Origin: Gekko japonicus
Taxonomy: Eukaryota
Direction of reading: 5' to 3'
DNA length: 55,985 nt
Assembly (NCBI RefSeq): GCF_001447785.1
Contig: NW_015163096.1
Span: forward strand, 1,681,280 to 1,737,264
Under the pieces are notes generated by a model. That model worked only from the letters and a program-made list of their open reading frames with translations, had not been told where the DNA came from and did no database searches. Below, in pieces: positions 1,022 to 55,985 of this stretch (the first letter of the stretch is position 1; each line of letters begins with the position of its first letter). The translations under genes were made by a program, and so were the position numbers.

Positions 1022-1445
1022 TAGGGTTGCCAGGTGTACTCACCTGACCAGCGGGGTGCTCTCTGGAAGTGCTGCCCCCCGACGTGATGACATCATCCAG
1101 AAGTGACGTCATCATGTTGGGGATGTTGTGGGTGATGCTCTGCTTTTTGGGCAAAACTCTATGGTGATGACCTCAAAACCATAGAGTTTTACCCAAAAAA
1201 CAGAGTGTCACCCCCAGCGTCCCCAACATGATGATGTCACCTGGAAGTGATGTCATCATGTCAGAGACACACTTCCATTTTACCTGGAAGATGGTTGGAG
1301 GAGTGCAGATTTGCAGGCAGGGGTTCTCCCGCTGGCCAACTGGCTGGCATTGGAAAGGAACCTGCCAAATCAGGGGATTCCCCCAACCCCACCAGGGGGC
1401 GGGGGATCCCTACACCCAACTCCAACTGACCTGGGGGCAATCCTA
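1022..1445. mobile_element. hAT-type MITE with long internal palindrome
   Basis: Termini 'tagggttgcca' and 'ggcaatccta'; internal imperfect inverted repeat ~1088-1166 / ~1178-1256. Confidence 0.75.
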
Positions 1446-6154: not shown

Positions 6155-6649
6155 TGTTACTAAAAGAATGCCTGGAAAGGTAGGAGGCTGATCAATAAAG
6201 CACTAGGTCCCTGGAAGTGTGCAAGTGTGGTAAACTGTCCCTGCAAAGGCTAGTTGGAGCAAAACTAACAGATGTGGGTAGTAGGTGAACACTGTAAATG
6301 GCAACATAGACAGAGTGCTAGGAATGCTAGCCCTCTTCGTGGGGAACATTCTTATCAACCAGCTGGTTGCAGTGTAGCCTTTCTGGGTAGAAAGAAGCAA
6401 CAAGCACCTCTGGGAGTCAAGTGAACTTGGGAGAATGGGACACTGCCAAGCAGAAACCTGGAAGAGCTACTGAGTGTCTTGACCCTCCAGAGGACACAAA
6501 GAGGAATGGTGCACGTGGGTCAGTGGGGCATTCTGCGACAGTGGCAAAGGAAGCATCACCTTCTTCCACCACGGAATCTGCAAAATCTTGTCCAGCTAAA
6601 TTGTTTCAAATTGTTCAAAATGTAATGGTATCTAGGTAAGATGTGGTTG

Positions 6650-7301
6650 AACTGGATGTGGATATAGACTGTTGACACTGTTGTCAATTCTTTTCAGATT
6701 AAATCTCTTTGATCTGATCCCACTTGGATACTGATTTGGCTACATATCAAGGAGTAGACATAGGTCAGAAAATGTTTTTTTGAAATCTTTAAAGGAAACC
6801 ATTATTAGACCTTTACTGAAAACAATTACTGTCTGCAGACAATCCTACAAGCTACAAACTGATGTCTAATGTATTGTTCTTGGGCCAAGTGAGTGAATGG
6901 AAACTGGCAGAGAGCTACTTCAGACGATTCTGGGTGATGTATCTGCACCTGACCCATTTCAGTCTAGCTTCAGGCTAGCTATTGGGACCCAGACAGCGAA
7001 GGTAGCTCTGAGGGATGATTTCAGGTTACAACTAGACAGAAGAAATGATTCTGTGCTGATCCTTATTGATATATCAGCTGTGTTCAATACAGTGGATCCT
7101 GCCACTTTGTTCCATCATCTTCAAGCATATCAGAGTATTACAATGGCTTCAGGTTTCTGTGTGACAGAACATCCAGAGTACCGGGAGGAGATATGGAAAA
7201 CACTGCCTGCGAGTTGACATACGAGATGCCACAGGGATCTGTTCTAAACTCTATGTTGTTTAAAAAATATTTAAGACCTCTCAGAAAGATTGTTCATACC
7301 T
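6650..7301 (+). mobile_element. Degenerate L2 LINE RT region (left part, host of the L1 insertion)
   Basis: 'FQSSFRLAIGTQTAKVALRDD...LILIDISAVFNTVD' matches the L2 RT motif QSGFR..GTETAL..DD...LLDLSAAFDTVD; 'ccacagggatctgttct' corresponds to PQGSVL. Confidence 0.8.
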
Positions 7302-8235
7302 GAAGAGTAATGGCAATATCATCCGCATAGGCTTGGATTTTGTACTCTTGGTTTTTAACTTTGATCCCCTGTATTCGGTTATCTTTGCGGATATTTTCAC
7401 ATAGACCTTCCATAGTAAGGATAAATAGAAGCGGTGAAAGGGGACACCCTTGTCGCGTGCCCTTAAATATGTTTATTCCTGTAGTCAGATCTGAATTAAT
7501 TATTATATTCGCTTCTTGATTTCTGTAAATTGTTTCAATTACACTGATAAAGTCTTGCCCGCAATCTATTTCTTTTAGATTTTGGATCATATAGTCCCAG
7601 TTGACGTTATCGAACGCCTTTTCGGCGTCTATAAAAATTATTGCTAACTGCTTGCTTATATCTGTCTCACAGTACTCTAGAACATTCAAGATAGTTCTAA
7701 TGTTTTGCTTTACTTGCCGGTTGGGTAGAAATCCCGCCTGATCTGAGTGTATTAATTGTACCAGTATCTTCCTCATACGTTGGGCCATTATATAAGCGTA
7801 GATCTTATAATCCACGTTGAGTAATGATATAGGGCGGTAGTTCTTGATTTCTTTTTCATCAGTACCCTTTTTATGTATTAGTGAAATTAATGCACTATTC
7901 CAGGATCTTGGTGTTGCCTTTGTTTCTGGTATATCTGTTACTATCTGTTTATAAACTGAGCTCAGCTCATCTTGGAAAGTTGTATAAAATTCAGAGGGTA
8001 GCCCGTCAGGGCCAGGGGCTTTATTTTTCTTTTGGTTTTTAATTGCTCCCGCTATTTCTGTCGATGTTATTTTTTGGTTTAAGATATTTTTTTGGTCCTC
8101 ATTTAATTTCTTTGTGTGTACTCTGTTCTTTAAGAAGGTCTGGATAGCGTCTGTATCAATAGTTTCCTTCCTATATAATTTGGTGTAAAAATTCTTAGCA
8201 ATATCTTTCAGGTCATCTATTCTATGCTTATCTTC
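7302..8235 (-). pseudogene. Inverted L1 ORF2 segment (linker/Z region through RT YADD motif)
   Basis: Open minus frame reads '...NKAPGPDGLPSEFY...NYRPISLLNVDYK...GTRQGCPLSPLLF...YADDIAITL'. Confidence 0.93.
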
Positions 8236-8585
8236 ATGCCGACGACCTAGTTTTTATTTTAGAAGAACCCCTAGAGTCAATTGAACATTTATTAAATACC
8301 CTTCGTATATATGGGCAAGTAGCAGGTCTGAAAATTAACCTACAGAAATCTAAAATACTAACGAAAAACTGTTCAAAAGAAACTGAGGATTTGTTAGCAA
8401 ATAAATCTGGATTCATAATTAGTAAAAAAGTTAAACACCTAGGAATCTGGTTAACAAATAAATGTAGTGCTCTATTTGATAACAACTATAAGAGAGTCCT
8501 GACGGAGATAAAAACCGACTTAGAAAAATGGAAAGACCTACAGCTATCCTTGATGGGAAGGGTGGCAACTATTAAAATGTGTATT
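8236..8585 (+). pseudogene. RT fragment from a second, divergent L1 family
   Basis: Open frame 'ADDLVFILEEPLESIEHLLNTLRIYGQVAGLKINLQKSKILTKNCS...LQLSLMGRVATIKMCI'; homologous to but clearly different from 9097-9445. Confidence 0.9.
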
Positions 8586-8607
8586 CCGCCCTATATCATT
8601 ACTCAAC

Positions 8608-10728
8608 GTGGATTATAAGATCTACGCTTATATAATGGCCCAACGTATGAGGAAGATACTGGTACAATTAATACACTCAGATCAGGCGGGATTTCTACCC
8701 AACCGGCAAGTAAAGCAAAACATTAGAACTATCTTGAATGTTCTAGAGTACTGTGAGACAGATATAAGCAAGCAGTTAGCAATAATTTTTATAGACGCCG
8801 AAAAGGCGTTTGATAACGTCAACTGGGACTATATGATCCAAAATCTAAAAGAAATAGATTGCGGGCAAGACTTTATCAGTGTAATTGAAACAATTTACAG
8901 AAATCAAGAAGCGAATATAATAATTAATTCAGATCTGACTACAGGAATAAACATATTTAAGGGCACGCGACAAGGGTGTCCCCTTTCACCGCTTCTATTT
9001 ATCCTTACTATGGAAGGTCTATGTGAAAATATCCGCAAAGATAACCGAATACAGGGGATCAAAGTTAAAAACCAAGAGTACAAAATCCAAGCCTATGCGG
9101 ATGATATTGCCATTACTCTCCTGGACCCGTTGCAATCTGTCCCACCCCTGCTAGAGGTGATGCATGATTTTGGGCATTTATCGGGCCTGAAAATAAATAA
9201 GACTAAGACAAAAATACTAACGAAAAATTGTGGCCCAGCCCTAGAGAGAAAACTGCAAGAAATAACCGATTTTGGTTTAGAAAAGAACGTGAAATATCTT
9301 GGGATAAACATTACGAATAGAACAAGTACATTGATACCAGGTAATTACGATACGCTCTTGACCCAGGTTAAAAAGGATTTAGAAAATTGGTCCAAGCTTC
9401 AACTGTCTCTTATGGGGAAAGTGGCAGTGATTAAAATGGCTATACTTCCCAGGATACTATTTCTATTTCAAAACATCCCAGTACTCAATAATTACAAGTT
9501 TATAAAAATTATGGATAAGTTAACATCAGATTTTATTTGGGGGGGAAAAAAACCCAGAATAAAGATTTATTCTTTACAAGAAAAAACAAAGAAGGGCGGA
9601 TTGGCAGTGCCGAATTGGCGACTATACTATCAGGCCGCGGCACTGACATGGTTACGTGAATGGATATTGCTCAGAAATCAGAGGATTTTAAGCCTAGAAG
9701 GCCACAACCTAATGGCAGGGTGGCACTATTTTTTAAGCGTAGGAACAGAAAAACATTCCTACTTTTGTCAACACCGAATCAGAGCCTGTTTAATAAAAAT
9801 ATGGAAGGAAATTAAAACTAACTACTATGACAAAAAACCAAGATGGGTTGCCCCCCTGGAGGCTATCTCATTACCAACTTTGATGACGGAAACCCGAACT
9901 TTAAGTTACGAAGTCTTACTAAACAAGAATAATCAACTAAAATCACAGGAGGCCTTGCAAGCCCAACAGGTCAAACTAACATGGTGGGAAAGAAACCAAT
10001 TAACATCTAAATATAACAAAGATATTCAAACAGGGATAAATAAAAACTTTACAGTACTAGACAAAATTTTATTGGGTCCAGAAGTAAAAATGATAGGCAA
10101 AATATACGCCTTTCTATTAGAAAATAGACCACAAGATAAAAATAAGAAAACACCCCTGACAAAATGGAATAATAATATAGGGAAAATAATTGACCCACGA
10201 AAATGGGATGGGATATGGAAAAATATGAGACAACTAAAGGCGGTATCACTAAAAGAAAACCTGTTTAAGATCTGTCATCGCTGGTACTTAACCCCTGCTA
10301 GATTGGCCAAATTTTACCCCGGTAGTAACAATAAATGCTGGAAATGTAAAGCACAAATTGGGTCGTTTTTCCATGTTTGGTGGTCCTGCGATGCGGTAAA
10401 GAAATACTGGAAAGAGGTACATCAGGTGATCACCCAGGCAACAAAGTTGCAAATAACACTGGACCCTGAAATATTTTTATTAAATATTCTACCCGAGAGT
10501 TGGGAAAAAAAAGATAAACACGTCCTGACAAATTTGTTAGCAGCAGCTAGAATCGTATTAGCCAGTTACTGGAAAAGAGATGAAATTCCGGATAGACTAG
10601 ATTTTATAAACAAAGCAATTGAGGTGATAGAAATGGACAATCTAACACAAAAACTCCACGGAAGGAAAAACTCTGTATTTTCAGCTATGTGGTCAAATGT
10701 TTATGATTGGATCGATAAGAATGTATAA
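8608..10728 (+). CDS. L1 ORF2 C-terminal part: RT domain and Cys-rich C-terminus; no endonuclease and no true start
   Basis: Uninterrupted 706 codons with DAEKAFD, QGCPLSPLLF, YADD, KYLG and CWKC...HVWWSC. The listed start is an internal GTG; L1 homology begins at 8586. Confidence 0.93.
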   Translation: MDYKIYAYIMAQRMRKILVQLIHSDQAGFLPNRQVKQNIRTILNVLEYCETDISKQLAIIFIDAEKAFDNVNWDYMIQNLKEIDCGQDFISVIETIYRNQEANIIINSDLTTGINIFKGTRQGCPLSPLLFILTMEGLCENIRKDNRIQGIKVKNQEYKIQAYADDIAITLLDPLQSVPPLLEVMHDFGHLSGLKINKTKTKILTKNCGPALERKLQEITDFGLEKNVKYLGINITNRTSTLIPGNYDTLLTQVKKDLENWSKLQLSLMGKVAVIKMAILPRILFLFQNIPVLNNYKFIKIMDKLTSDFIWGGKKPRIKIYSLQEKTKKGGLAVPNWRLYYQAAALTWLREWILLRNQRILSLEGHNLMAGWHYFLSVGTEKHSYFCQHRIRACLIKIWKEIKTNYYDKKPRWVAPLEAISLPTLMTETRTLSYEVLLNKNNQLKSQEALQAQQVKLTWWERNQLTSKYNKDIQTGINKNFTVLDKILLGPEVKMIGKIYAFLLENRPQDKNKKTPLTKWNNNIGKIIDPRKWDGIWKNMRQLKAVSLKENLFKICHRWYLTPARLAKFYPGSNNKCWKCKAQIGSFFHVWWSCDAVKKYWKEVHQVITQATKLQITLDPEIFLLNILPESWEKKDKHVLTNLLAAARIVLASYWKRDEIPDRLDFINKAIEVIEMDNLTQKLHGRKNSVFSAMWSNVYDWIDKNV

Positions 10729-10908
10729 GAACATACAAGATAATTTGATTGTAATCATAATCGATATATATAGATTTTTGTTAAGCTTTAAGGATCATTT
10801 TAATGTGCAACATGGTGGGTTTATGGGGATCACGGGTGTTGGATGTACCACTACTTATACTTTAATAAAAAACTAACAATAAAAAAAAAAGAAAGATTGT
10901 TCATACCT

Positions 10909-11540
10909 TTGGGGTTTGGAGTCTTCAGCATATATCAGCCTCCAGTGCTGCCGTCTTGGTTCTTGGCCATTATCCTGAGACCATGTTAAAGTGGCTAAGG
11001 ATAAACAATCTGAAGTTAAATCCAGATAGAACAGAGGTGATACTGGCTGGAAAAGCTGGTGTCCTGGAGGCATTCCATTAATTATGCTAGATAGGGTTCT
11101 ATGAAGGCTAGTAGAATCTGTAGGCCCTAGGACCCATCCTTATGTATGGGGAAAAACAGATCATGTTGCTGCTATGAATGCTCCTTTTCAGTTACATCTG
11201 GCACAGGGACTCTGTCCATCTGAACATAGTTGATCTGACCACATTGATTCATGGTACTGTAACCCTGAGACTAGATTAGTCTAATACAACCTATGTGGAG
11301 CTGCCTTTGAAGGCAACTTGGAAACTGCAGCTGGTCGAGAATGCAACAGCTTATCTACTGACAAAATGAGATCTGGGACTGTAAGGGAGAGAATCTTGCC
11401 TGTGGCAGTTCCCATCTTTGTGGAACTTGCTGCCAGATGAGCTAAGAGCTGCCTCTTCCCTTGTATAGTCTAGATGGCAGTGTAAATCAACACTGTTTAT
11501 GTGAGCTTTCACATGACTGTTATTTATTTATTTACTTCGT
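10909..11540 (+). mobile_element. Degenerate L2 LINE, right part to the 3' end
   Basis: Continues after the TSD; typical L2 3' motifs 'agactagattag' and 'ggaaactgcagctggt...gaatgc'; (TATT)n tail. Confidence 0.75.
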
Positions 11541-13960: not shown

Positions 13961-14258
13961 CAAGTCTATCCCTACTAAATAGGGAATGGGTGGGTGTATA
14001 GGAAGAGAGACCCTTTTTTGTGCCCCCTGTACGGGATTTTTTTATTGCAGCTTCTATAAACTACAAAGAAACAAGGAAGAGTATACTACCAACTACAGGG
14101 GAAAGAAAAGAAAACCTCTAAAACCCAATGGTGGTCATTCACAATGCTTACAACATTGGCTTATAATACATTGGCTTATACTTGCTACCTTAAGTAAGTA
14201 CATAATTCTGTTTTGCTTATAATAGCATCTCCAGCAAAAATGACTAAAGAGAAATGCT

Positions 14259-15260
14259 TCAAAATAGTTTAAAATAGGATCTAGAGAAAATCATAACCCA
14301 TTTTTTCTCCTTTTTGTTTCTCAAACAATAGCTTAATTTAGGGGCTGCAACCTCCAGTTCAGAAACTGAGTCCTCATCGGAAGGTGCCAGTGCTCCTTCT
14401 TCTTCACTTCCCTTGCTGCTGCCATCTTCATCTTTATCCTTCTCCCCTGCTGGACCGGCATGTTGATGTAAAAATTTGCGTGCCTTTGCAACAGAGTCAA
14501 TTCTTTCTTTCTTGTCTTTAAATTTGAAGAGCATGCCTTCAGGGACAGCCCATATGTAGGGAATGTTATTTTGCTGTAAAAACAGTGCCGAGTCTCTGTA
14601 TTTCTTTTTCTTCTTCCTTATTTCAAATGGAACATCCTTCAAAACTTTTATTTCTTTGTCTTTGTTCTTCAGGTTGGCTCCATTTGTTGCTTTCAAAACT
14701 TGATCTTTTACTTGTCTCCTGAAGAATCTCACCACAATCTCGCCGGGCAGATTATTCTTTCTTATGAAGTCAGAATATGATCTATATATCATATCTACTT
14801 CATTTTGTAAAAACTCCGCTTTTAAATCTGCAACCGGACCCAGTAAATTGCACATAGTCTGTTTTAGATCTTCCCCTCTTGCTTCAGGGACCCCCTGAAA
14901 TCTTAAGATGTAGCTTGCTTTTTCCATTTGCAGCTGTAGTAGTTGCGCCTCCTCAGTTGCTTGCTTTTTTTCCATCCCCTGCATTTGCTTCTGCAGCTTT
15001 TGTGTGTTGGCATCCACTTCTTTAAGCTCTTGCTCCATTTTTTCTGTCTTCTTAGTAGTTTCATTTAGTTGGCTTTGTTGTGCATTGAATTTTGAATGGA
15101 ACGATGTCATTTGCTCCAGCAGAGGGCGCAGAGCCTCAGTCAGCATAGTTTGGAAATCTTTGGTAGTGTCCTGTCTAGGACCAGAGCTCGCTGGGCTGGC
15201 ATTTCCAGCAGAGAATTTCAGTTTCGATTGCTTGTCCTTCTCCTTCTTCTTCGGTGCCAT
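14259..15260 (-). CDS. L1 ORF1p-like RNA-binding protein (coiled coil, RRM, CTD)
   Basis: ATG start with basic N-terminus MAPKKKEK; heptad-rich segment; RRM-like 'ILRFQGVPE' and 'LPGEIVVRF'; CTD-like 'KVLKDVPFEIRKK...IPYIWAVPEGMLFKF'; acidic tail; no stops over 333 codons. Confidence 0.9.
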   Translation of the reverse strand: MAPKKKEKDKQSKLKFSAGNASPASSGPRQDTTKDFQTMLTEALRPLLEQMTSFHSKFNAQQSQLNETTKKTEKMEQELKEVDANTQKLQKQMQGMEKKQATEEAQLLQLQMEKASYILRFQGVPEARGEDLKQTMCNLLGPVADLKAEFLQNEVDMIYRSYSDFIRKNNLPGEIVVRFFRRQVKDQVLKATNGANLKNKDKEIKVLKDVPFEIRKKKKKYRDSALFLQQNNIPYIWAVPEGMLFKFKDKKERIDSVAKARKFLHQHAGPAGEKDKDEDGSSKGSEEEGALAPSDEDSVSELEVAAPKLSYCLRNKKEKKWVMIFSRSYFKLF

Positions 15261-15765
15261 GTTTGGGATTTGTTTACTTTTTAGAAATTGTTATCAAAGT
15301 CTCAAAATCCTTTAAATTCGCTTGGTAAGTTCTCAAAAGTTCTTTATTTTTAGTCCGCTCACTTTTTCATTCCCCCCCTTTAGTATCGTTTATCAGTCCG
15401 CTTTTCTTTCGTGGGGGAGTTCCCCCCCTCGTTCTATCAAGGGGAGGCTTTCAGGTTGCTTTCTGGTGTCTTTGCTTATACAAACACTCACTTTTCCGTG
15501 TAGATCTCGCTTTTCTCGATTAAATCCCCCAGCCACCAAGCACTTTCCTAGTGTGCTTTCCCATGTCCATTTCGGAAAACAGCAGCGGGACCATCGGGGC
15601 ATGGATTGCCTCCCCCCTTCACCAGCCATTTGCTGGAGGAAGGGCCCTCCTAGTGCCCCATGGCTATGGAGCCCATTGCAAGGGCTCCGGGGGGGGATGC
15701 ATAAGATTGCACCCCCTCCCATCCACCGATTCACTGTCCACGTCTCCCAGAGCTCCGAGAGATCG

Positions 15766-15798
15766 TGGCCGCCATTAGGAAGTCAAAACCGGAAGTCT
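15766..15798 (-). promoter_or_regulatory. L1 internal promoter 5' motifs (ETS-like and YY1-like)
   Basis: Minus strand begins AGACTTCCGGTTTTGACTTCCTAATGGCGGCC: ACTTCCGG (ETS/GABP-like) and AATGGCGG (YY1-like) directly inside the TSD. Confidence 0.65.
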
Positions 15799-15963
15799 GG
15801 AAGAGGGACCCTTGAAAAGGGAAGCAGATGGATGTGCCAGCAAGATATAAGGGAGTATAAACTGGGAGATTAAAGAGTCCAAGGACTGAGAGCAGGGTAT
15901 CTGTTGTGGGGAGGGTGCTATGAAACTCAGCTGCTCTGAAACTCCTCTGGGTAGTGAAGGGTG

Positions 15964-16172
15964 NNNNNNNNNNNNNNNNNNNNNNNNNNNNNNNNNNNNN
16001 NNNNNNNNNNNNNNNNNNNNNNNNNNNNNNNNNNNNNNNNNNNNNNNNNNNNNNNNNNNNNNNNNNNNNNNNNNNNNNNNNNNNNNNNNNNNNNNNNNNN
16101 NNNNNNNNNNNNNNNNNNNNNNNNNNNNNNNNNNNNNNNNNNNNNNNNNNNNNNNNNNNNNNNNNNNNNNNN
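15964..16172. other. Assembly gap
   Basis: Run of N. Confidence 1.
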
Positions 16173-24070: not shown

Positions 24071-24206
24071 NNNNNNNNNNNNNNNNNNNNNNNNNNNNNN
24101 NNNNNNNNNNNNNNNNNNNNNNNNNNNNNNNNNNNNNNNNNNNNNNNNNNNNNNNNNNNNNNNNNNNNNNNNNNNNNNNNNNNNNNNNNNNNNNNNNNNN
24201 NNNNNN
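24071..24206. other. Assembly gap
   Basis: Run of N. Confidence 1.
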
Positions 24207-27461: not shown

Positions 27462-28431
27462 AGCATCAGGTACTAAATTTGCCCTGGGACACCCCGACAA
27501 AATTAAAGTGACTGTGTTGCTAGAGGGGAAGCTTTGCAAGATGGAGCTGGACACAGGGTCCTCCATCTCCATCATATCTGAAGAGACTCTCCGGAGGCTC
27601 TGTCCACAAGGCCCCCCCCCGCCTGAGGCCCGCAGGCTTCACCCTCCGGGACTTTCAGAAGAACAAGGTGGCCATTAAGGGGTGGAGCAAATTCCATGTG
27701 AAATACCGGCACTTTGAGGAACACTTGGACTTATTGGTGGTGGAAGGGCAGCTCACCAGCTTGCTTGGACTGTCTTGGTTTGCGCCCTTAGGTTTCAAAG
27801 TAACGGGGGTGCACCACGTGTGGCCTACAGACTTCAGAAACGTGTGTCAGGAGATCCTGGCTGTCTTCAACAGGACACTCAGACGGTACACGGGTCCCCC
27901 AGTATTGCTCCAACTCAACCACAAGGTGTGCCCCATCCGCCTCAAGGCCCGGAGAGTCCCAGTCACGCTCAAGCCCAAAACTGAGGCGGAATTAGACCAT
28001 TTGTTGGTGCAAGGTGTTTAGAGCCGGTTCCCCACGTCACCTGGGAGACCCCCATCGTAACCCGGATTAAGCCAAATGGGGATGTCCGCATCTGCATGGA
28101 TTATAAATGCACAATCAACAAGGTGCTGGAAGACCACGCTTATCCAGTGCTGGTCATCAGCCACGTTGTAGTGGCATTGGCCAGGTCCAAAATCTTCGGG
28201 AATCTGGACTTGGCCCAAGCCTATCAGCAACTCCCAGTGGATGAACCAAACCATTATCACACACCAGGGTGCGTTCAGAGTCAAGCAGTTACAGTTCGGG
28301 GTGAGTGTGGCTCCGGGAATCTTTCAAAATCTGATGGACTCTCTTTTGAAAGGAATCCCTGGGGTCCAGCCCTTTTTCGATGTTTTGATCACCGCCCCCT
28401 CGGAGGAGGACTTCGCCACCCACCTACGCAC
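27462..28431 (+). pseudogene. Ty3/Gypsy pol fragment (aspartic protease and RT), frameshifted, no LTRs
   Basis: 'KMELDTGSSISIISE', 'PIRLKARRVP', 'VRICMDYKCTIN', 'LDLAQAYQQL', 'LQFGVSVAPGIFQ'. Confidence 0.9.
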
Positions 28432-29460
28432 TAGAGTTGTCTTATGTTCTGCTGAAATCACTTAATAAACTATGAGCTGATCACTACACGCGTCTAGAAC
28501 CCAGTATATTTCAACAAGTCTCCCTCATCCAATAATTATGTATTTGATTCTTCTTACCTAAATGTTGGTCCATGGGGTCGCGAAGAGTCGGACTCGACTG
28601 TGCGACTGAACAACAACAACAACAAACCTAAATGTAGAACTTTACATTTATCTCTTTTGAAATTCATTGTCAGTTTTAGCCCAGTTTTCCAGCCTATCAA
28701 GATCATCCCGTATCTTGACTCTGTCTTCTTCTGTATTTGCTACCCCTCCCAATTTAGTATCATCTGTAAATTTAATGAGCACCCCCTCTATTCCTTCATC
28801 CAAGTCAATTATAAAGATGTTGAATAACACAGAGTCCAGGATAGATTTCTAAGGCACTCCACTGGTCACTCCTCTATAAAAGGATGAGGAACCATTAACA
28901 AGCACTCTTTGAGTATGAGCTGTCAATCACTTACAAATCCACCTAACAGTAATAGAATCCAAACCACATTTTATCAACTCATCAACAAGAATATCATGTG
29001 GGACCTTATCAAACGCTTTACTGAAACCAAGATAAACTACATCCAGAGCACTTCCCAGGTTCAACAAGGTAGTAACTCTCACAAAAAAGGAGATAAGGTT
29101 ACTCTGACATGACTTGTTCCTGAGAATCCATGCTGGCTCTTAGTAATGCTCAAGGACTGCTAAATGCTCAAGGACTGACTGATTATTTGTTCTAAAACTT
29201 TTCCAGGTATAGACTTCACACTGAAGGTCAGTAGTTACCTGGATCCTCCTTTTTTCCTTTCTTGAAGATGGGGACAACAGCTGCCCGCCTCCAATCTTCT
29301 GGCACCTCACTTGTTCTCCAAGAATTCTCAAAAATAATGGACAGAGGCTCTGAAATTATACCAGCAAGTTCCTTAAGTACCCTTGGATGCAATTTGTTTG
29401 GCCCTGAGGACTTAATTTTATTTAAAGGAATTAGGTGTTTATGTACCACCCCTGTGCCTA
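28432..29460 (-). mobile_element. CR1 LINE RT region relic
   Basis: 'LFNIFIIDLDEGIEGVLIKFTDDTKLGG' and 'HPRVLKELA...VPEDWRRAAVVPIFKKGKKEDPGNY'. Confidence 0.92.
28566..28625 (+). mobile_element. 60-bp RTE-BovB 3' tail insertion
   Basis: GGTCCATGGGGTCGCGAAGAGTCGGACTCGACTG...(CAA)n; perfect 10-bp TSD ACCTAAATGT (28556-28565, 28626-28635). Confidence 0.88.
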
Positions 29461-29771: not shown

Positions 29772-29990
29772 GGGACTGATTTCGCACTAGGGATGCATTT
29801 TGACTCGCGGCTTCGCCCGATTTCCCCCGCAGTTTTGTGATCCTGTTTTTTGAGGATCACGAAACTGTGGAGGAAATCGGGCGAAGCCGCGGGTCAAATG
29901 CAGCCCCGTGGCTTCAGGTGTGAAATTGACCAATAGTATCGGGGCAAACGGCGGCACAACATCGAGGCAGCTCTAGTGTGAAATCAGCCC
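29772..29990. mobile_element. Palindromic MITE (PIF/Harbinger-like)
   Basis: TIR 'ctgatttcgcactag...ctagtgtgaaatcag'; internal ~50-bp hairpin. Confidence 0.75.
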
Positions 29991-30727: not shown

Positions 30728-31015
30728 TGCCAACCTAGCAGTTTGAAAGCAAGAAATTGCAAATTGGCGGAATCTGGTCCATGGGGTCGCGAAGAGTCGG
30801 ACTCGACTGTGCGACTGAACAACAACAAAAAAATAGGTAACGCTTTGGTGGGAAGATAACAGCATTCCATGTGCTTTGGCATTTAGTCATGCCGGCCACA
30901 TGACCATGGAAACGTCTTTGGACAGCGCTGGCTCTTCAGCTTGGAAATGGAGATGAGCACCACCCCCTACAGTCGGATTTGACTGGCTTTCAAGCAAGGG
31001 AAATCTTTATCTTTT
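30728..31015 (+). mobile_element. 5'-truncated Sauria SINE with a nested BovB tail
   Basis: Reverse complement of the 33082 and 39625 copies ('tagtcatgccggccacatgacc'). Confidence 0.85.
30765..30830 (+). mobile_element. ~66-bp RTE-BovB 3' tail insertion
   Basis: Identical to 28566-28617 over 52 nt; interrupts the Sauria SINE. Confidence 0.85.
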
Positions 31016-33433: not shown

Positions 33434-34468
33434 TAAGAGGACCATACTGAGTCCCAAAAAGTTTCAGGCAGGTCAAAATTAAGATCTGTAGGCCAAGACG
33501 CAGCATAAGAAGGCAGCGTGTAAGGTTTTGGATCTATTAAAATTTTATATACTTTCGATATCATCCCTCTGTTTGTTCCATTTGAAGATATTACTAATTT
33601 TTCAAACTCTGTTAGCGGTCTTGTACACGCTTCTTTAATCTGCGGCATTAAAAATAGGTGTTGCAGCTGTATATATTCGAACCATGGTAAATTGGCTTTG
33701 CTATGTTGTTTAATTTAAATTTTTCCATAGGTTTCCTGTTGCGAGTTAGATCATATAGAGTACCTAAGTGGAAAAGAATTAAAGCCTTGAGCTGGGTAAA
33801 ACCAAGATTGGCCGAAGAACATGGCCGCTAGGGATATGTCAGGAGCCAAAGAGGAGTGTTTAAGTCTCCATATCTTGAAAAGGGACTGGAGAAATGGGTG
33901 TTTGTCTATAGAATCCTGATTTTCAGTTGTCTTGTTCCAAATGGCTATTTGATATTGTGTCTTGCCAAGGAAGTTTTCTTCTATCTTAACCCATTTTGGC
34001 TGCGGACTGGATTTTAAAATCCTAATAAAACTTGAGAGCAGTGTGGCTTCATAATACAATTTAATATCAGGAAGGGCTAAACCTCCTATTCTAATTGGTC
34101 TACGTAGTGTGGTAAATCTAATTCTGGATCTACGGTAACTCCAAATGAATTTGTTCCAATAGGATTGCCAACTGCTAAATTGAGAGGACAAGAATAGGTA
34201 AGGGGAGTGTACGGAAAAGGTATAAAAGTTTAGAACAAACAAAGGTTTTAATGGAATGAATTCTCGCTAGCCATGTCAAATTTTGGTTATGCCATCGCTC
34301 TAGTTGTAGTTTGGATTTCTCTATGGTGTCTACATAGTTAATTTTGAAAAGATTTTTCAAATCTTTGGCAATTTGGATTCCCAGATATGACCATGAATGC
34401 GTTACCCATTGATACTTGAAATGGGAGTGAATGAAATATTCAGATGAAGGTGAAAGATTAATCTCCAA
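33434..34468 (-). pseudogene. L1-clade ORF2 fragment (post-RT region), third family, frameshifted
   Basis: 'SYLGIQI...LERW...LLYLFRTLP', 'KFIW...GGLALPDIKLYYEA', 'GMISKVYKIL'. Confidence 0.88.
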
Positions 34469-35493
34469 GACTGCTCTTGTTAGCTGTTTGTCCTCTGAGG
34501 CATTCTTACTTAGGTGGCAGAATATCCATGTATAACATATGAGCTCCTTTGCCTTGTTGTCAGCCTTCAGACTTCTTGAAGTTCACTGCTTCCATGTTTC
34601 AAGAAACATGCTGACAAGTCACTTAAATGCTTTTAATATGTCAGTCCAAGTACTTTGGTTGGCATTCACATCATTTATAGTCTTTAATTCAAATCAGTTA
34701 TATTTGTTTCTCCCAGAATTACATTCTGTGAACCTGGACACTCTTTTTCAAGATTCAGTAGAAGGCACTGTTGAAGTATCAAAGAAGGTCCCCTTACTCA
34801 TACATGGAAAATCTAGTTCTGGTTGATATTTACAGCAATGGCATTATCTTCTCGAAAACAAAGCAGTCTTCTTATTTACAAAACATGATGCCTTGATGGG
34901 ATTGGTTTCCCAAGGGAAAGTAGTCCAGAGGTCTTGCTGACTTCTTCAAGGCAGGCTGTTAGGACCTGGTCTCTGAGAAGAACTTTCACAAACTCATGTT
35001 TTTCCATTGACTAAGGTCCATCTTACTTCAAGATGTATTCCTCTGCACCTGGATTTTTCTTTGTTATTAAGATAATCATCTTATCAGACCTACATTAAAC
35101 ACCCATTTCTCCAGACAAAGAATGACCAGTCTATGGAGGCAAAAAAAGAAGAAGTTAGTCTAGTCCAGCTGTATTTCCCTGTAACCCTGTATTTCTATTT
35201 CTTCCCTAATTTCTTCCTATGCTTCCTTGTAGTCTCTCACTCTCTCTCAATAAGCCACTTAATTAATTTCAGTTAAATCTGTGAAGTCTGTGTCTTCCTT
35301 ATTAATCCAGTGATTGTCTAATGAGGCTATTACATGACCCCATTTTCAACATGGAGGCAGAATGGTTTCAATAGAGCCTACCCTGATCACTGTGTGCATA
35401 AACTGGCTGCATTCATATGATCATGACTGTTATGTATTGTATGGAATGGAATGTATGTATATAGAGCTTGAGTCTGATGTAAGGCATTGAAAA

Positions 35494-35663: not shown

Positions 35664-36143
35664 GAAAAGGGGGGGGGAAGGGAAAAACTCAACCCAAGAT
35701 AACACTGTGAACCAGAAGGGTTAAGCTGACCGTATATATTATAAAAATACAAAATTTATTAAGGTGTACACATATTAAAATATATTTGGGTTAAACATTT
35801 TTTTCAAGTATCAGACTAATAAAAGCATATCAATTATTAATACACATGATGGGTTAACACTTTCCAACTGAAGACCAAACGCGTTTTGGCCTCAAAGGGC
35901 CTTCCTCAGTGGCCACTATACAACATAGTATAGACACACATTCAAACATATGTATACTTATTTAAAGACCATATGTTGTATCCTTATATGTTTGTAATTG
36001 TGTTGCTGGTATTAACGAAATCTCAGTACCAGAATAATTGGAATGAATATGGCCATACCTAGGGCCCATCATTAATACCAGCAACACAATTGCAAACATA
36101 TAAGGATACAACATATGGTCAGCTTAACCCTTCTGGTTCGCAG
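35664..36143 (-). mobile_element. Penelope-like element remnant with inverted pseudo-LTR structure
   Basis: 15-bp TSD AGGCATTGAAAACCA (35649-35663, 36144-36158); inverted repeats 35705-35735/36113-36143 and 35967-36015/36072-36120; hammerhead motif. Confidence 0.75.
35873..35914 (-). ncRNA. Minimal type I hammerhead ribozyme motif (Penelope-type), GAAA box mutated
   Basis: GGCCA-CUGAGGA-A-GGCC-CUUUGA-GGCC-AAAA-CGCG-UU-UGGUC; stems I and II pair; stem III is palindromic. Confidence 0.7.
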
Positions 36144-54979: not shown

Positions 54980-55985
54980 GAGTAACCAGAAATTCGGAGG
55001 ACAGCATCAAAAAGGTGGCAGAGCAGTTTTTAAACTGAATATTGGGGGAAAGCCGACAGGAGATGAAAAGTCTCTGGTTCGGGTTGGCTCATCTCAGAGA
55101 GATGAGGGGGTACCTGTTGCTTTTCTACAGGGAGGTGGATTGAAATTGTCCACTGAGACCATGGCTAGTGACATGGACTGCCTGACAAGGTCTCGAGATA
55201 GCAAGAGGAAGGTGGCAGGCTTAACTTGTATGGGACATTATAGCTGTTTCTATGCAAATGCTAGAAGTGTCCGAGGTAAAATCGGGGAGTTGGAGTGCTT
55301 GGTGTTGGAGGGAAAAACAGACATTGTGGGTATTTCAGAAACTTGGTGGGATGAGGAAAATCAGTGGGATACAGTGATTCCCAGTTATATATTATATCGG
55401 AAGGATGGGGGGGAAGGGTTGGAGGTGGGGTGGCTCTGTATGTCAGAGAGGGTATAAAGTCAAGAAAGATTGAGAGGCTAAGAGAATTGGATTCGCTTCT
55501 GGAAATTCTATGGGTTAAAATAGGGGGCCAAAAGGAAACTTAACACTGGGAGTTTGTTATCACCCACCAGATCAAAAGATAGAGGAGGATTATAAAATGA
55601 TGAATGAATTCAAGATAGCAGCTAGACAAAAACACTGTGTCGTAATAGATGATTTTAAATACCCACACATTGATTGGGTCAATATGTGTTCTAGTCGAGA
55701 AANNNNNNNNNNNNNNNNNNNNNNNNNNNNNNNNNNNNNNNNNNNNNNNNNNNNNNNNNNNNNNNNNNNNNNNNNNNNNNNNNNNNNNNNNNNNNNNNNN
55801 NNNNNNNNNNNNNNNNNNNNNNNNNNNNNNNNNNNNAAAAGTGAGTGCACTGCTTGGGAACAGTGATCATAATGTTATTGAGTTCAACATTTGTGTAAAT
55901 AGGGAATTGGCCAAAAAGACTGACACAATCACTTTTAACTTTAAAAGGGGTAACTTCTCTGATATGAGAGGACATATGGGGAGGA
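54980..55985 (+). mobile_element. CR1 LINE 5' portion with degenerate APE endonuclease
   Basis: 'CFYANARSVRGKIGELECLV...DIVGISETWWD...YRKD', 'DDFKYPHIDW', SDHN-encoding 'agtgatcataat'. Confidence 0.9.
55703..55836. other. Assembly gap
   Basis: Run of N. Confidence 1.

What the first reader, a model, noticed from the sequence alone, without database searches (positions are those of the whole stretch)
7283..10908. One L1 insertion built from three cDNA pieces: inversion, large duplication and a foreign template
Seen: a single perfect 19-bp TSD brackets (a) an inverted 0.93-kb ORF2 segment, (b) 350 bp from a different L1 family and (c) a sense 2.3-kb 3' end with poly(A). Established: twin priming explains 5' inversions, usually with a small deletion or short overlap at the junction. 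Here the two primed products overlap by 534 nt and are bridged by an unrelated RNA. Inference: at least two and possibly three RNA templates were copied at one target site, which suggests RNPs containing several L1 mRNAs, including ones from different families. All frames are open, so the event is recent and may be polymorphic.
Basis: partly seen in the sequence, partly recalled or inferred. Interest (0 to 1): 0.75.

Follow-up and report, generated by a model that had tools for sequence, protein, structure and literature searches.

The report
Flipped L1; foreign insert likely artefact
A young L1 jumping gene in a lizard- or snake-type genome sits with its front part flipped, likely from the known "twin priming" copying accident, and the extra duplicated and foreign-family pieces shown in the assembly are likely an assembly error, because a sequenced DNA clone that most likely comes from this site lacks them.

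Summary
The assembled sequence is as described. A 19/19 TSD brackets an inverted 933-nt ORF2 piece (a), 351 nt of another L1 family (b, 50% aa) and a sense 2.3-kb end (c). The arms match at 533/534. Reads confirm the left junction and the inversion.

The middle is in doubt. In a clone-type run, a contig forks off the locus contig and follows (a) to 8236. It then carries 1146 letters not on the stretch laid and resumes as sense (c), with neither (b) nor the second arm. That geometry is canonical twin priming: about 2 kb inverted, with at most 30 nt overlap or 91 nt deletion. The window has three N gaps, and its doubtful parts equal the family's majority sequence.

Best reading (0.68): an ordinary 5'-inverted squamate L1 whose middle was filled wrongly in assembly. 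The case rests on one low-depth contig; no read across either internal junction was seen or excluded. No empty allele was listed.

The parts
7283..7301 (+). 5' copy of the 19-bp target site duplication. The bottom-strand nick would fall at a pyrimidine-run/purine step (TTCT/GA), an imperfect L1 endonuclease site (consensus as quoted in PMC11702581).
   Evidence: read-confirmed in X1 and X2
7302..7303 (+). Two junction letters; only imperfect microhomology between the TSD end and the template at (c) 9120-9124
   Evidence: the family continuation before 7304 equals (c) from 9120
7304..8236 (-). (a) inverted ORF2 piece, from about aa 393 of a ~1245-aa ORF2 to just past the YADD motif. 7304-8087 is confirmed at this locus by a clone-type contig. 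Record 10 implies the real inverted piece likely runs 1025-1146 nt further.
8236..8586 (+). (b) ORF2 fragment of a second L1 family (YADD to the IKM motif), homologous to (c) 9095-9444. A roughly single-copy variant of a higher-copy family; likely does not belong here.
8586..9119 (+). Second copy of the 534-nt arm; absent from X2 record 10; likely family-majority sequence filled in by the assembly
9120..10728 (+). Sense 3' part of ORF2 (RT end and C-terminal CCHC region) to its stop. 9211-9290 lies in record 10; the true sense start is constrained to 9090-9211.
10729..10889 (+). Short 3' UTR, A-rich end and 9-A tail
10890..10908 (+). 3' copy of the TSD
6897..7282 (+). Old degenerate RT-bearing host element, left part (the L2 label is recalled from motif likeness)
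   Evidence: weak RVT_1, E 0.034; frame continues across the empty site
10909..11370 (+). Right part of the same host element (end approximate)

Best explanation
This is one young, 5'-inverted squamate L1 insertion with a 19-bp TSD, likely made by ordinary twin priming on one RNA, and the foreign piece (b) and the 534-nt second arm are likely a mis-filled middle of a short-read assembly. SHOWN: the TSD, the left junction, at least 784 nt of inverted ORF2 attached to the left flank, and a contig path with inverted then sense sequence of the same family that lacks (b) and the arm. INFERRED: that this path is this locus; that its 1146 unseen letters are 1025-1146 nt more inverted ORF2 (reaching about aa 11-51) plus up to 121 nt of sense sequence. 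INFERRED MECHANISM: ORF2p nicked the bottom strand and copied from the poly(A) to about 9090-9211; the top-strand end primed at about 9119-9121 and copied about 2 kb toward the 5' end; the two cDNA ends were joined. The assembly then either extended both sides along the family's majority sequence and abutted a stray piece, or slid into another copy where the two junctions are real.
For: (1), run X2 (3 records laid; their depths reproduce the bins 50.1, 7.24 and 2.34 exactly). Record 9 spans 6300-8087 with 0 differences and forks at 8058-8087 into record 11 (ends in plasmid-polylinker-like letters, label recalled; depth 30.2) and record 10 (depth 8.69). The two depths sum to 38.9 against 37.4. 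(2) Record 10 follows (a) to 8236, has 1146 other letters, then (c) in sense: its loose end equals window 9232-9261 at 30 of 30 (compared by eye). (3) All 31-mers in a Logan contig set are distinct (10.1101/2024.07.30.605881, passage). 473 31-mers of (c), starting at 8586-9089, are already in record 9's span, and the assembled allele would force branches at 7304 and 7837. So record 10 cannot hold the arm, and the sense start is 9090-9211: at most 30 nt overlap or 91 nt deletion. Human medians are 22-bp duplications and 14.5-bp deletions (10.1101/2024.08.27.596794). (4) An unrelated copy would have to share this inversion point within about 120 nt and leave no branch in record 9; my rough estimate is about 5% for each. 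(5) The window has N gaps of 209, 136 and 134. The assembled span is only 172 nt shorter than record 10, as a gap-size-bound fill would be. (6) Window 8022-8236 equals the X1 family path at 0 differences, while record 10 has 2. Four family contigs each carry one unlisted difference compatible with 7612, so the (c) arm likely equals the majority letter (inferred). (7) The (b) variant is near single-copy depth in X1 (96.9 vs 77.2) and X3 (73.7 vs 71.7-95.3), each with 1-2 differences from the window: one copy, as a misplaced piece predicts.
Against: The case rests on one contig at depth 8.69 whose 1146 middle letters I could not read. Record 10 differs from the window at 2 of 179 letters, and 2 of 10 RNA reads covering 8178 carry one of these letters, so it could be another copy or the other chromosome. 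The a/b and b/c joints share only 1 letter, so a k-mer overlap assembler would not make them by itself; how they arose is not shown. (b) starts in register with (c) 9095, 25 nt from the inversion point; mis-assembly explains that only as chance (about 1-2%, post hoc). The unbroken family contigs over the two branch points in X1 (records 3, 5) and X3 (record 17) are weak evidence: graph simplification can drop a short low-depth edge between high-depth paths (SPAdes-like heuristics; thresholds recalled, not checked). Single-copy (b) also fits a real insert whose donor was lost.
Confidence: 0.68

Rival explanations
1. Two real alleles. The canonical twin-primed allele (record 10) came first. On the assembled chromosome about 1 kb of the inverted part was later replaced, during break repair, by a templated copy of the arm and a patch of another L1 family.
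For: X2 looks like two clones (depths 30.2 and 8.69). The one identical to the window ends at 8087, before the doubtful part, so record 10 may be the other chromosome. It differs from the window at 2 of 179 letters. One-letter joints suit end joining.
Against: Needs two template switches with 1-nt homology and a net length change of only -172 nt. The junction edges are not in the final graphs of X1 (both junctions) or X3 (b/c), although X1 looks homozygous for the insertion (weak because of simplification).
Confidence: 0.15
2. One reading: one insertion event copied two or three RNAs. The poly(A)-primed cDNA ran 534 nt past the second priming site, switched to an L1 RNA of another family for 350 nt, and was joined to the inverted cDNA. 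Record 10 is then another inverted copy elsewhere.
For: One perfect TSD brackets everything. Both families are CpG-rich (obs/exp 0.63-0.76 vs 0.13-0.22 in flanks) and have reads in RNA run X21 (45 reads laid). 20 of the 25 (b) differences that I tested are synonymous, so (b) comes from a selected lineage. Precedent in human cells: nine two-RNA insertions and one SEMA3C inversion with two extra RT pieces at its junction (PMC11702581, section read). A shared pause site near the YADD codons could explain (b)'s register.
Against: Record 10 would need the same inversion point and no visible branch. A 534-nt duplication is about 24 times the human median. No second near-identical (b) copy, the donor, is evident in X1 or X3. 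The RNA reads over (b) carry the main family's letters (5 of 5 at 8477, 8486 and 8499), not this variant.
Confidence: 0.1
3. Chimeric source RNA or cDNA fold-back: either a pre-existing a-b-c hybrid element was twin-primed at its a/b seam, or the first cDNA folded back on itself and the centre of the palindrome was later patched.
For: In element sense, (a) ends 25 nt past the register where (b) starts, so a and b are nearly colinear.
Against: A hybrid source predicts more than one copy of the (b) variant and of the b/c joint; depth is about one copy. Neither form explains record 10, which has more inverted sequence and no arm.
Confidence: 0.04

Closest known systems
5'-inverted (twin-primed) L1 insertions. 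Model of Ostertag & Kazazian 2001 (not read; seen as described in passages of PMC2912911, PMC11702581, PMC4245944 and 10.1101/2024.08.27.596794)
   Same: Inverted 5' part plus sense 3' part with an A tail inside one TSD of 10-20 bp, at an endonuclease-type site. By record 10 the breakpoints are adjacent within +30/-91 nt.
   Different: Squamate-type host and L1 family (40-45% aa to most Anolis, Podarcis and snake ORF2s). By record 10 the inverted part (~2 kb) would be longer than the sense part (~1.7-1.8 kb), whereas in human tumours the poly(dT)-primed part is on average 2.6-fold longer. 5' microhomology is imperfect.
Non-canonical multi-template L1 insertions in cultured human cells and tumours: two-RNA insertions and the SEMA3C inversion with extra RT pieces (PMC11702581, section 7 read); 'twin priming and switching' (10.1101/2024.08.27.596794, passages)
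   Same: The assembled structure, if real, is an inversion with an extra reverse-transcribed piece at the internal junction.
   Different: Here the extra piece would be another L1 family, in the germ line, with a 534-nt overlap; and read evidence argues that it is not at this locus.
U6/LINE and other RNA/LINE chimeras, including U6 with L1, L2 and RTE in Anolis (PMC4476161 and 10.1101/2025.02.02.635956, passages)
   Same: Shows that template joining during LINE insertion occurs in a lizard.
   Different: The foreign RNA sits at the 5' end, not inside an inversion junction, and is not another L1.

Membership tests
L1-clade LINE | ORF2 with RT domain and C-terminal CCHC region, closest to vertebrate L1 ORF2 | tested here: met
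   RVT_1 E 5e-38, weak zf-RVT. The 120 best hits listed are mostly squamate RT-domain proteins, two of them named L1/LINE-1 ORF2.
L1-clade LINE | A-rich 3' tail, 7-20-bp TSD, endonuclease-type target | tested here: met
Twin-primed L1 | 5' part inverted and joined directly to the upstream TSD | tested here: met
   X1 record 1 and X2 record 9
Twin-primed L1 | Inversion breakpoints adjacent on the element (short deletion or duplication) | tested here: inconclusive
   Not met in the assembly (534-nt overlap plus insert); met by X2 record 10 (+30 to -91 nt), whose assignment to this locus is inferred
Twin-primed L1 | Microhomology between the top-strand 3' end and the internal priming site | tested here: inconclusive
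   3 of the 5 letters 7299-7303 pair with template 9120-9124; the terminal TSD letter does not
Twin-primed L1 | Both parts copied from one RNA | not testable with these tools
   Same family (533/534), but the source copy cannot be traced without the genome (none held)
Multi-template (chimeric) L1 insertion | Foreign piece physically present between the arms on molecules from this locus | tested here: not met
   The one contig path through the middle lacks it; single low-depth contig, so absence is not proven for all alleles
Multi-template (chimeric) L1 insertion | Donor RNA or donor locus of the foreign piece exists | tested here: inconclusive
   Family b is present and has RNA reads, but the exact variant is at about one copy and is not the one seen in RNA

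The most novel reading that the evidence does not exclude
The assembled allele is real and arose in one germ-line event: a squamate L1 ORF2p ran 534 nt past the twin-priming site and switched to the RNA of a second, 50%-diverged L1 family, and both copies stopped or started at the same YADD-coding position. That would show cross-family L1 templates at one target site and a conserved pause site in L1 RNA.
Probability: 0.1. Interest if true: 0.55.

Novelty: new member of a known kind. Interest (0 to 1): 0.2.

Why it matters
If the best explanation holds, this is a read-supported 5'-inverted L1 in a squamate-type genome. That is mildly useful: in cell culture, human L1 gave inversions in human cells but none in chicken DT40 cells, and the authors call inversion host-dependent (PMC4245944, passages). 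My searches for twin priming with 'lizard' or 'reptile' listed 3 papers each. In the passages I read of two of them I saw no lizard L1 inversion; the third I saw only as a listing, and most subscription papers are not held. It is also a warning that complex young L1 structures in gapped assemblies can look like new mechanisms. If the three-template reading were true, it would be natural germ-line evidence that RNAs of different L1 families meet at one insertion site, a possible route to inter-family recombination.

Tried and rejected
No genome is held, so no genome-wide count of inverted copies or junctions was possible.

The run search listed no holder on record as RNA; this is not used as evidence. 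Only 4 of 24 listed runs and one 2316-base stretch (6300-8615) were laid; 268 pieces, 89 loose ends and 1 variant row were not shown. Holes in depth were not taken as absence. The unbroken family contigs in X1 and X3 were downgraded to weak evidence because simplification could remove true junction edges.

My first reading of the arm mismatch as CpG decay after a real duplication was dropped: the family contigs likely carry the (c) letter. Decay of (b) after insertion was rejected: 20 of 25 tested differences are synonymous. I tested 25 of the 31 variant rows in (b) and left out six rows that were RNA-driven or second letters. Plasmid instability in the cloning host was rejected as the source of record 10, since that path is longer than the assembly and holds sequence not on the stretch.

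tblastn found no donor for (b) in the window, only an old fragment near 33.4-34.5 kb at 21-27%. Earlier scan notes: nothing by place, by sequence or by the first word search; one search listed 8 of 20 unchecked notes from other genomes.

Kojima & Okada 2009 on 5' inversion is not held, so the known taxonomic range of L1 inversion is not checked against it; one search found nothing. The gap-filling search gave 3 listings that I did not read. No supplements were read; Fig. S7 of PMC11702581 and Supplementary Fig. 4c of the tumour paper may show longer duplications or closer precedents.
Full report
OBSERVATION. A 19-bp direct repeat (7283-7301, 10890-10908) is perfect and unique in the window. 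It interrupts an old RT-bearing element whose frame continues across the empty site (the L2 label is recalled). Inside lie (a) minus-strand ORF2, (b) plus-strand ORF2 of another family and (c) plus-strand ORF2 to its stop at 10728, with a short UTR and a 9-A tail; all frames are open. (b) is 58 of 116 aa and 186 of 344 nt identical to (c) 9095 onward, no closer than either is to other squamate L1s (best hits 49-53%). The arms agree at 533 of 534. Relatives of (c) are squamate L1 ORF2s, mostly at 40-45%.

READS. No genome is held. Of 24 runs listed, I laid four on 6300-8615, which holds three of the four junctions. The left junction is real. In X1 one contig runs from the flank through the TSD to 7333 at depth 77.2, with two flank differences from the window. 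It is unbranched at the TSD, which suggests both chromosomes carry the insertion. In X2 one contig covers 6300-8087 with no difference. Loose ends show both families continuing normally on each side of the internal joints and fix one shared letter at each (8236, 8586).

THE DECIDING RECORD. X2 looks like a clone pool: record 11 is 8058-8087 followed by polylinker-like letters (label recalled). It may be the material behind the assembly, so it is not independent. Only three records were laid, and their depths reproduce the table exactly. Record 9 forks at 8058-8087 into record 11 (depth 30.2) and record 10 (8.69), which sum to about record 9's 37.4. Record 10 follows (a) to 8236, then has 1146 letters that match nothing on the stretch at 90%, then (c) in sense: a 21-letter piece equal to 9211-9231 and a loose end equal to 9232-9261 at 30 of 30. 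So it is an inverted element of the same family without (b). The Logan paper states that all 31-mers of a contig set are distinct (10.1101/2024.07.30.605881, passages). 473 31-mers of (c), starting at 8586-9089, are already in record 9's span, and the assembled allele would break record 9 at 7304 and 7837. Record 10 therefore cannot hold the second arm, and its sense part starts at 9090-9211. With (a) starting near aa 393 of ORF2, the missing letters fit 1025-1146 nt more of inverted ORF2, ending near aa 11-51, for an insertion 172 nt longer than assembled. That is canonical twin-priming geometry: in human tumours 66% of inversions have a deletion (median 14.5 bp) and 17% a duplication (median 22 bp) (10.1101/2024.08.27.596794, passages).

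IS RECORD 10 THIS LOCUS? This is inferred. The family has roughly 6-8 near-identical copies by depth (446-622 vs 77 in X1; depth is a rough guide only). A different inverted copy would have to restart within about 120 nt of this locus's inversion point and leave no branch in record 9; I put each at about 5%. Against this, record 10 differs from the window at 2 of 179 letters, and one of these letters also occurs in 2 of 10 RNA reads at 8178. The window at 8022-8236 equals X1's majority path exactly. Four family contigs (X1 records 2 and 3, X3 records 15 and 16) each carry one unlisted difference that fits the single site 7612. So the clone-confirmed part likely has private letters and the doubtful parts are majority sequence, as a consensus fill predicts. 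This last point is inferred from counts.

OTHER RESULTS, FOR AND AGAINST. Family contigs run unbroken over the b/c branch point in X1 and X3 and over the a/b point in X1, while X1 breaks at the left junction. This is weak, because short low-depth edges can be simplified away. The (b) variant is at about one copy in X1 (96.9) and X3 (73.7), with 1-2 differences from the window; the main family is at 850 or more and differs by about 8% (9 of 109 letters in X1 record 6), mostly synonymously (20 of 25 rows tested, of 31). One copy fits a misplaced piece, but also a real insert whose donor was lost; lizard LINE insertions are mostly rare alleles (PMC5389967, passages). RNA run X21 gave 45 reads from both families, no listed joint, and main-family letters over (b). 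Two things remain unexplained: how an assembler abutted pieces with one-letter overlaps (the joints may be real at another copy), and why (b) starts in register with the inversion point (chance about 1-2%, post hoc, or a pause site).

MECHANISM. Likely ordinary twin priming on one RNA. The bottom strand was nicked at a TTCT/GA site and the poly(A)-primed cDNA ran to about 9090-9211. The top strand was cut 19 nt away, primed near 9119-9121 with imperfect homology, and copied about 2 kb; the ends were then joined. The TSD, the orientation and the left junction are shown; the priming steps follow from the established model; the middle rests on record 10. Odds: mis-assembly 0.68, rearranged second allele 0.15, one three-template event 0.10, hybrid source or fold-back 0.04.

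KNOWN SYSTEMS. It works like a mammalian 5'-inverted L1, and meets the inversion, TSD and tail tests; breakpoint adjacency and microhomology are inconclusive. It fails the one test I could run for a multi-template insertion. Even if real, the tripartite form has precedent: nine two-RNA insertions and an inversion with two extra RT pieces at its junction in human cells (PMC11702581, section 7 read; other passages), switching variants in tumours, and U6 chimeras with three LINE clades in Anolis (PMC4476161, passages). What I saw of other papers: PMC2912911, 10.1101/2025.02.02.635956 and PMC4245944 as passages only; Ostertag & Kazazian 2001 and Gilbert 2005 only as cited; Kojima & Okada 2009 not held. 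PMC4245944 found no inversion of human L1 in chicken cells. Searches turned up no description of a squamate L1 inversion in the listings and passages seen; that gives the plain reading modest value and is not proof of novelty. Unchecked scan notes report twin-primed LINEs in other non-mammalian genomes; they are leads only.

VERDICT. A real, young, 5'-inverted squamate L1; the striking three-piece middle is probably an assembly composite. Interest 0.2. The three-template reading keeps probability 0.10 and would merit 0.55.

Noticed in passing
window ~14016-15798, minus strand: An L1-like element that appears to carry ORF1 only: a 333-aa open frame (15260-14262) with weak hits to human LINE-1 ORF1p structures (E 0.007; Pfam gave only coiled-coil hits), a short A-rich tail, and a 15-bp direct repeat with one mismatch (15799-15813 and 14001-14015). 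It resembles half-L1 (HAL1) elements; that label is recalled.
   Followed up: partly
window 15964-16172, 24071-24206, 55703-55836: Three N gaps of irregular length; the assembly is scaffolded, so other young repeats in this genome may be mis-filled.
   Followed up: yes
window 33442-34522, minus strand: Old degenerate L1-like ORF2 fragment, 21-27% identical to (b) and (c).
   Followed up: no
window 27524-28434, plus strand: Broken frames with protease- and RT-like motifs that look like a Gypsy-type LTR element (label recalled); a 57-nt 98% repeat at 28566-28622 and 30775-30831.
   Followed up: no
window 1064-1277, 29790-29906, 35967-36120: Short palindromic elements, 79-83% self-complementary, possibly MITE-like.
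   Followed up: no
window 8236 vs 9095-9120: (b) starts at the position homologous to this locus's inversion point (YADD codons); unexplained beyond chance or a pause hot spot.
   Followed up: partly
window 6456-6767: A few RNA reads (depth about 1) in the left flank in run X21, perhaps intronic transcription through the locus.
   Followed up: no
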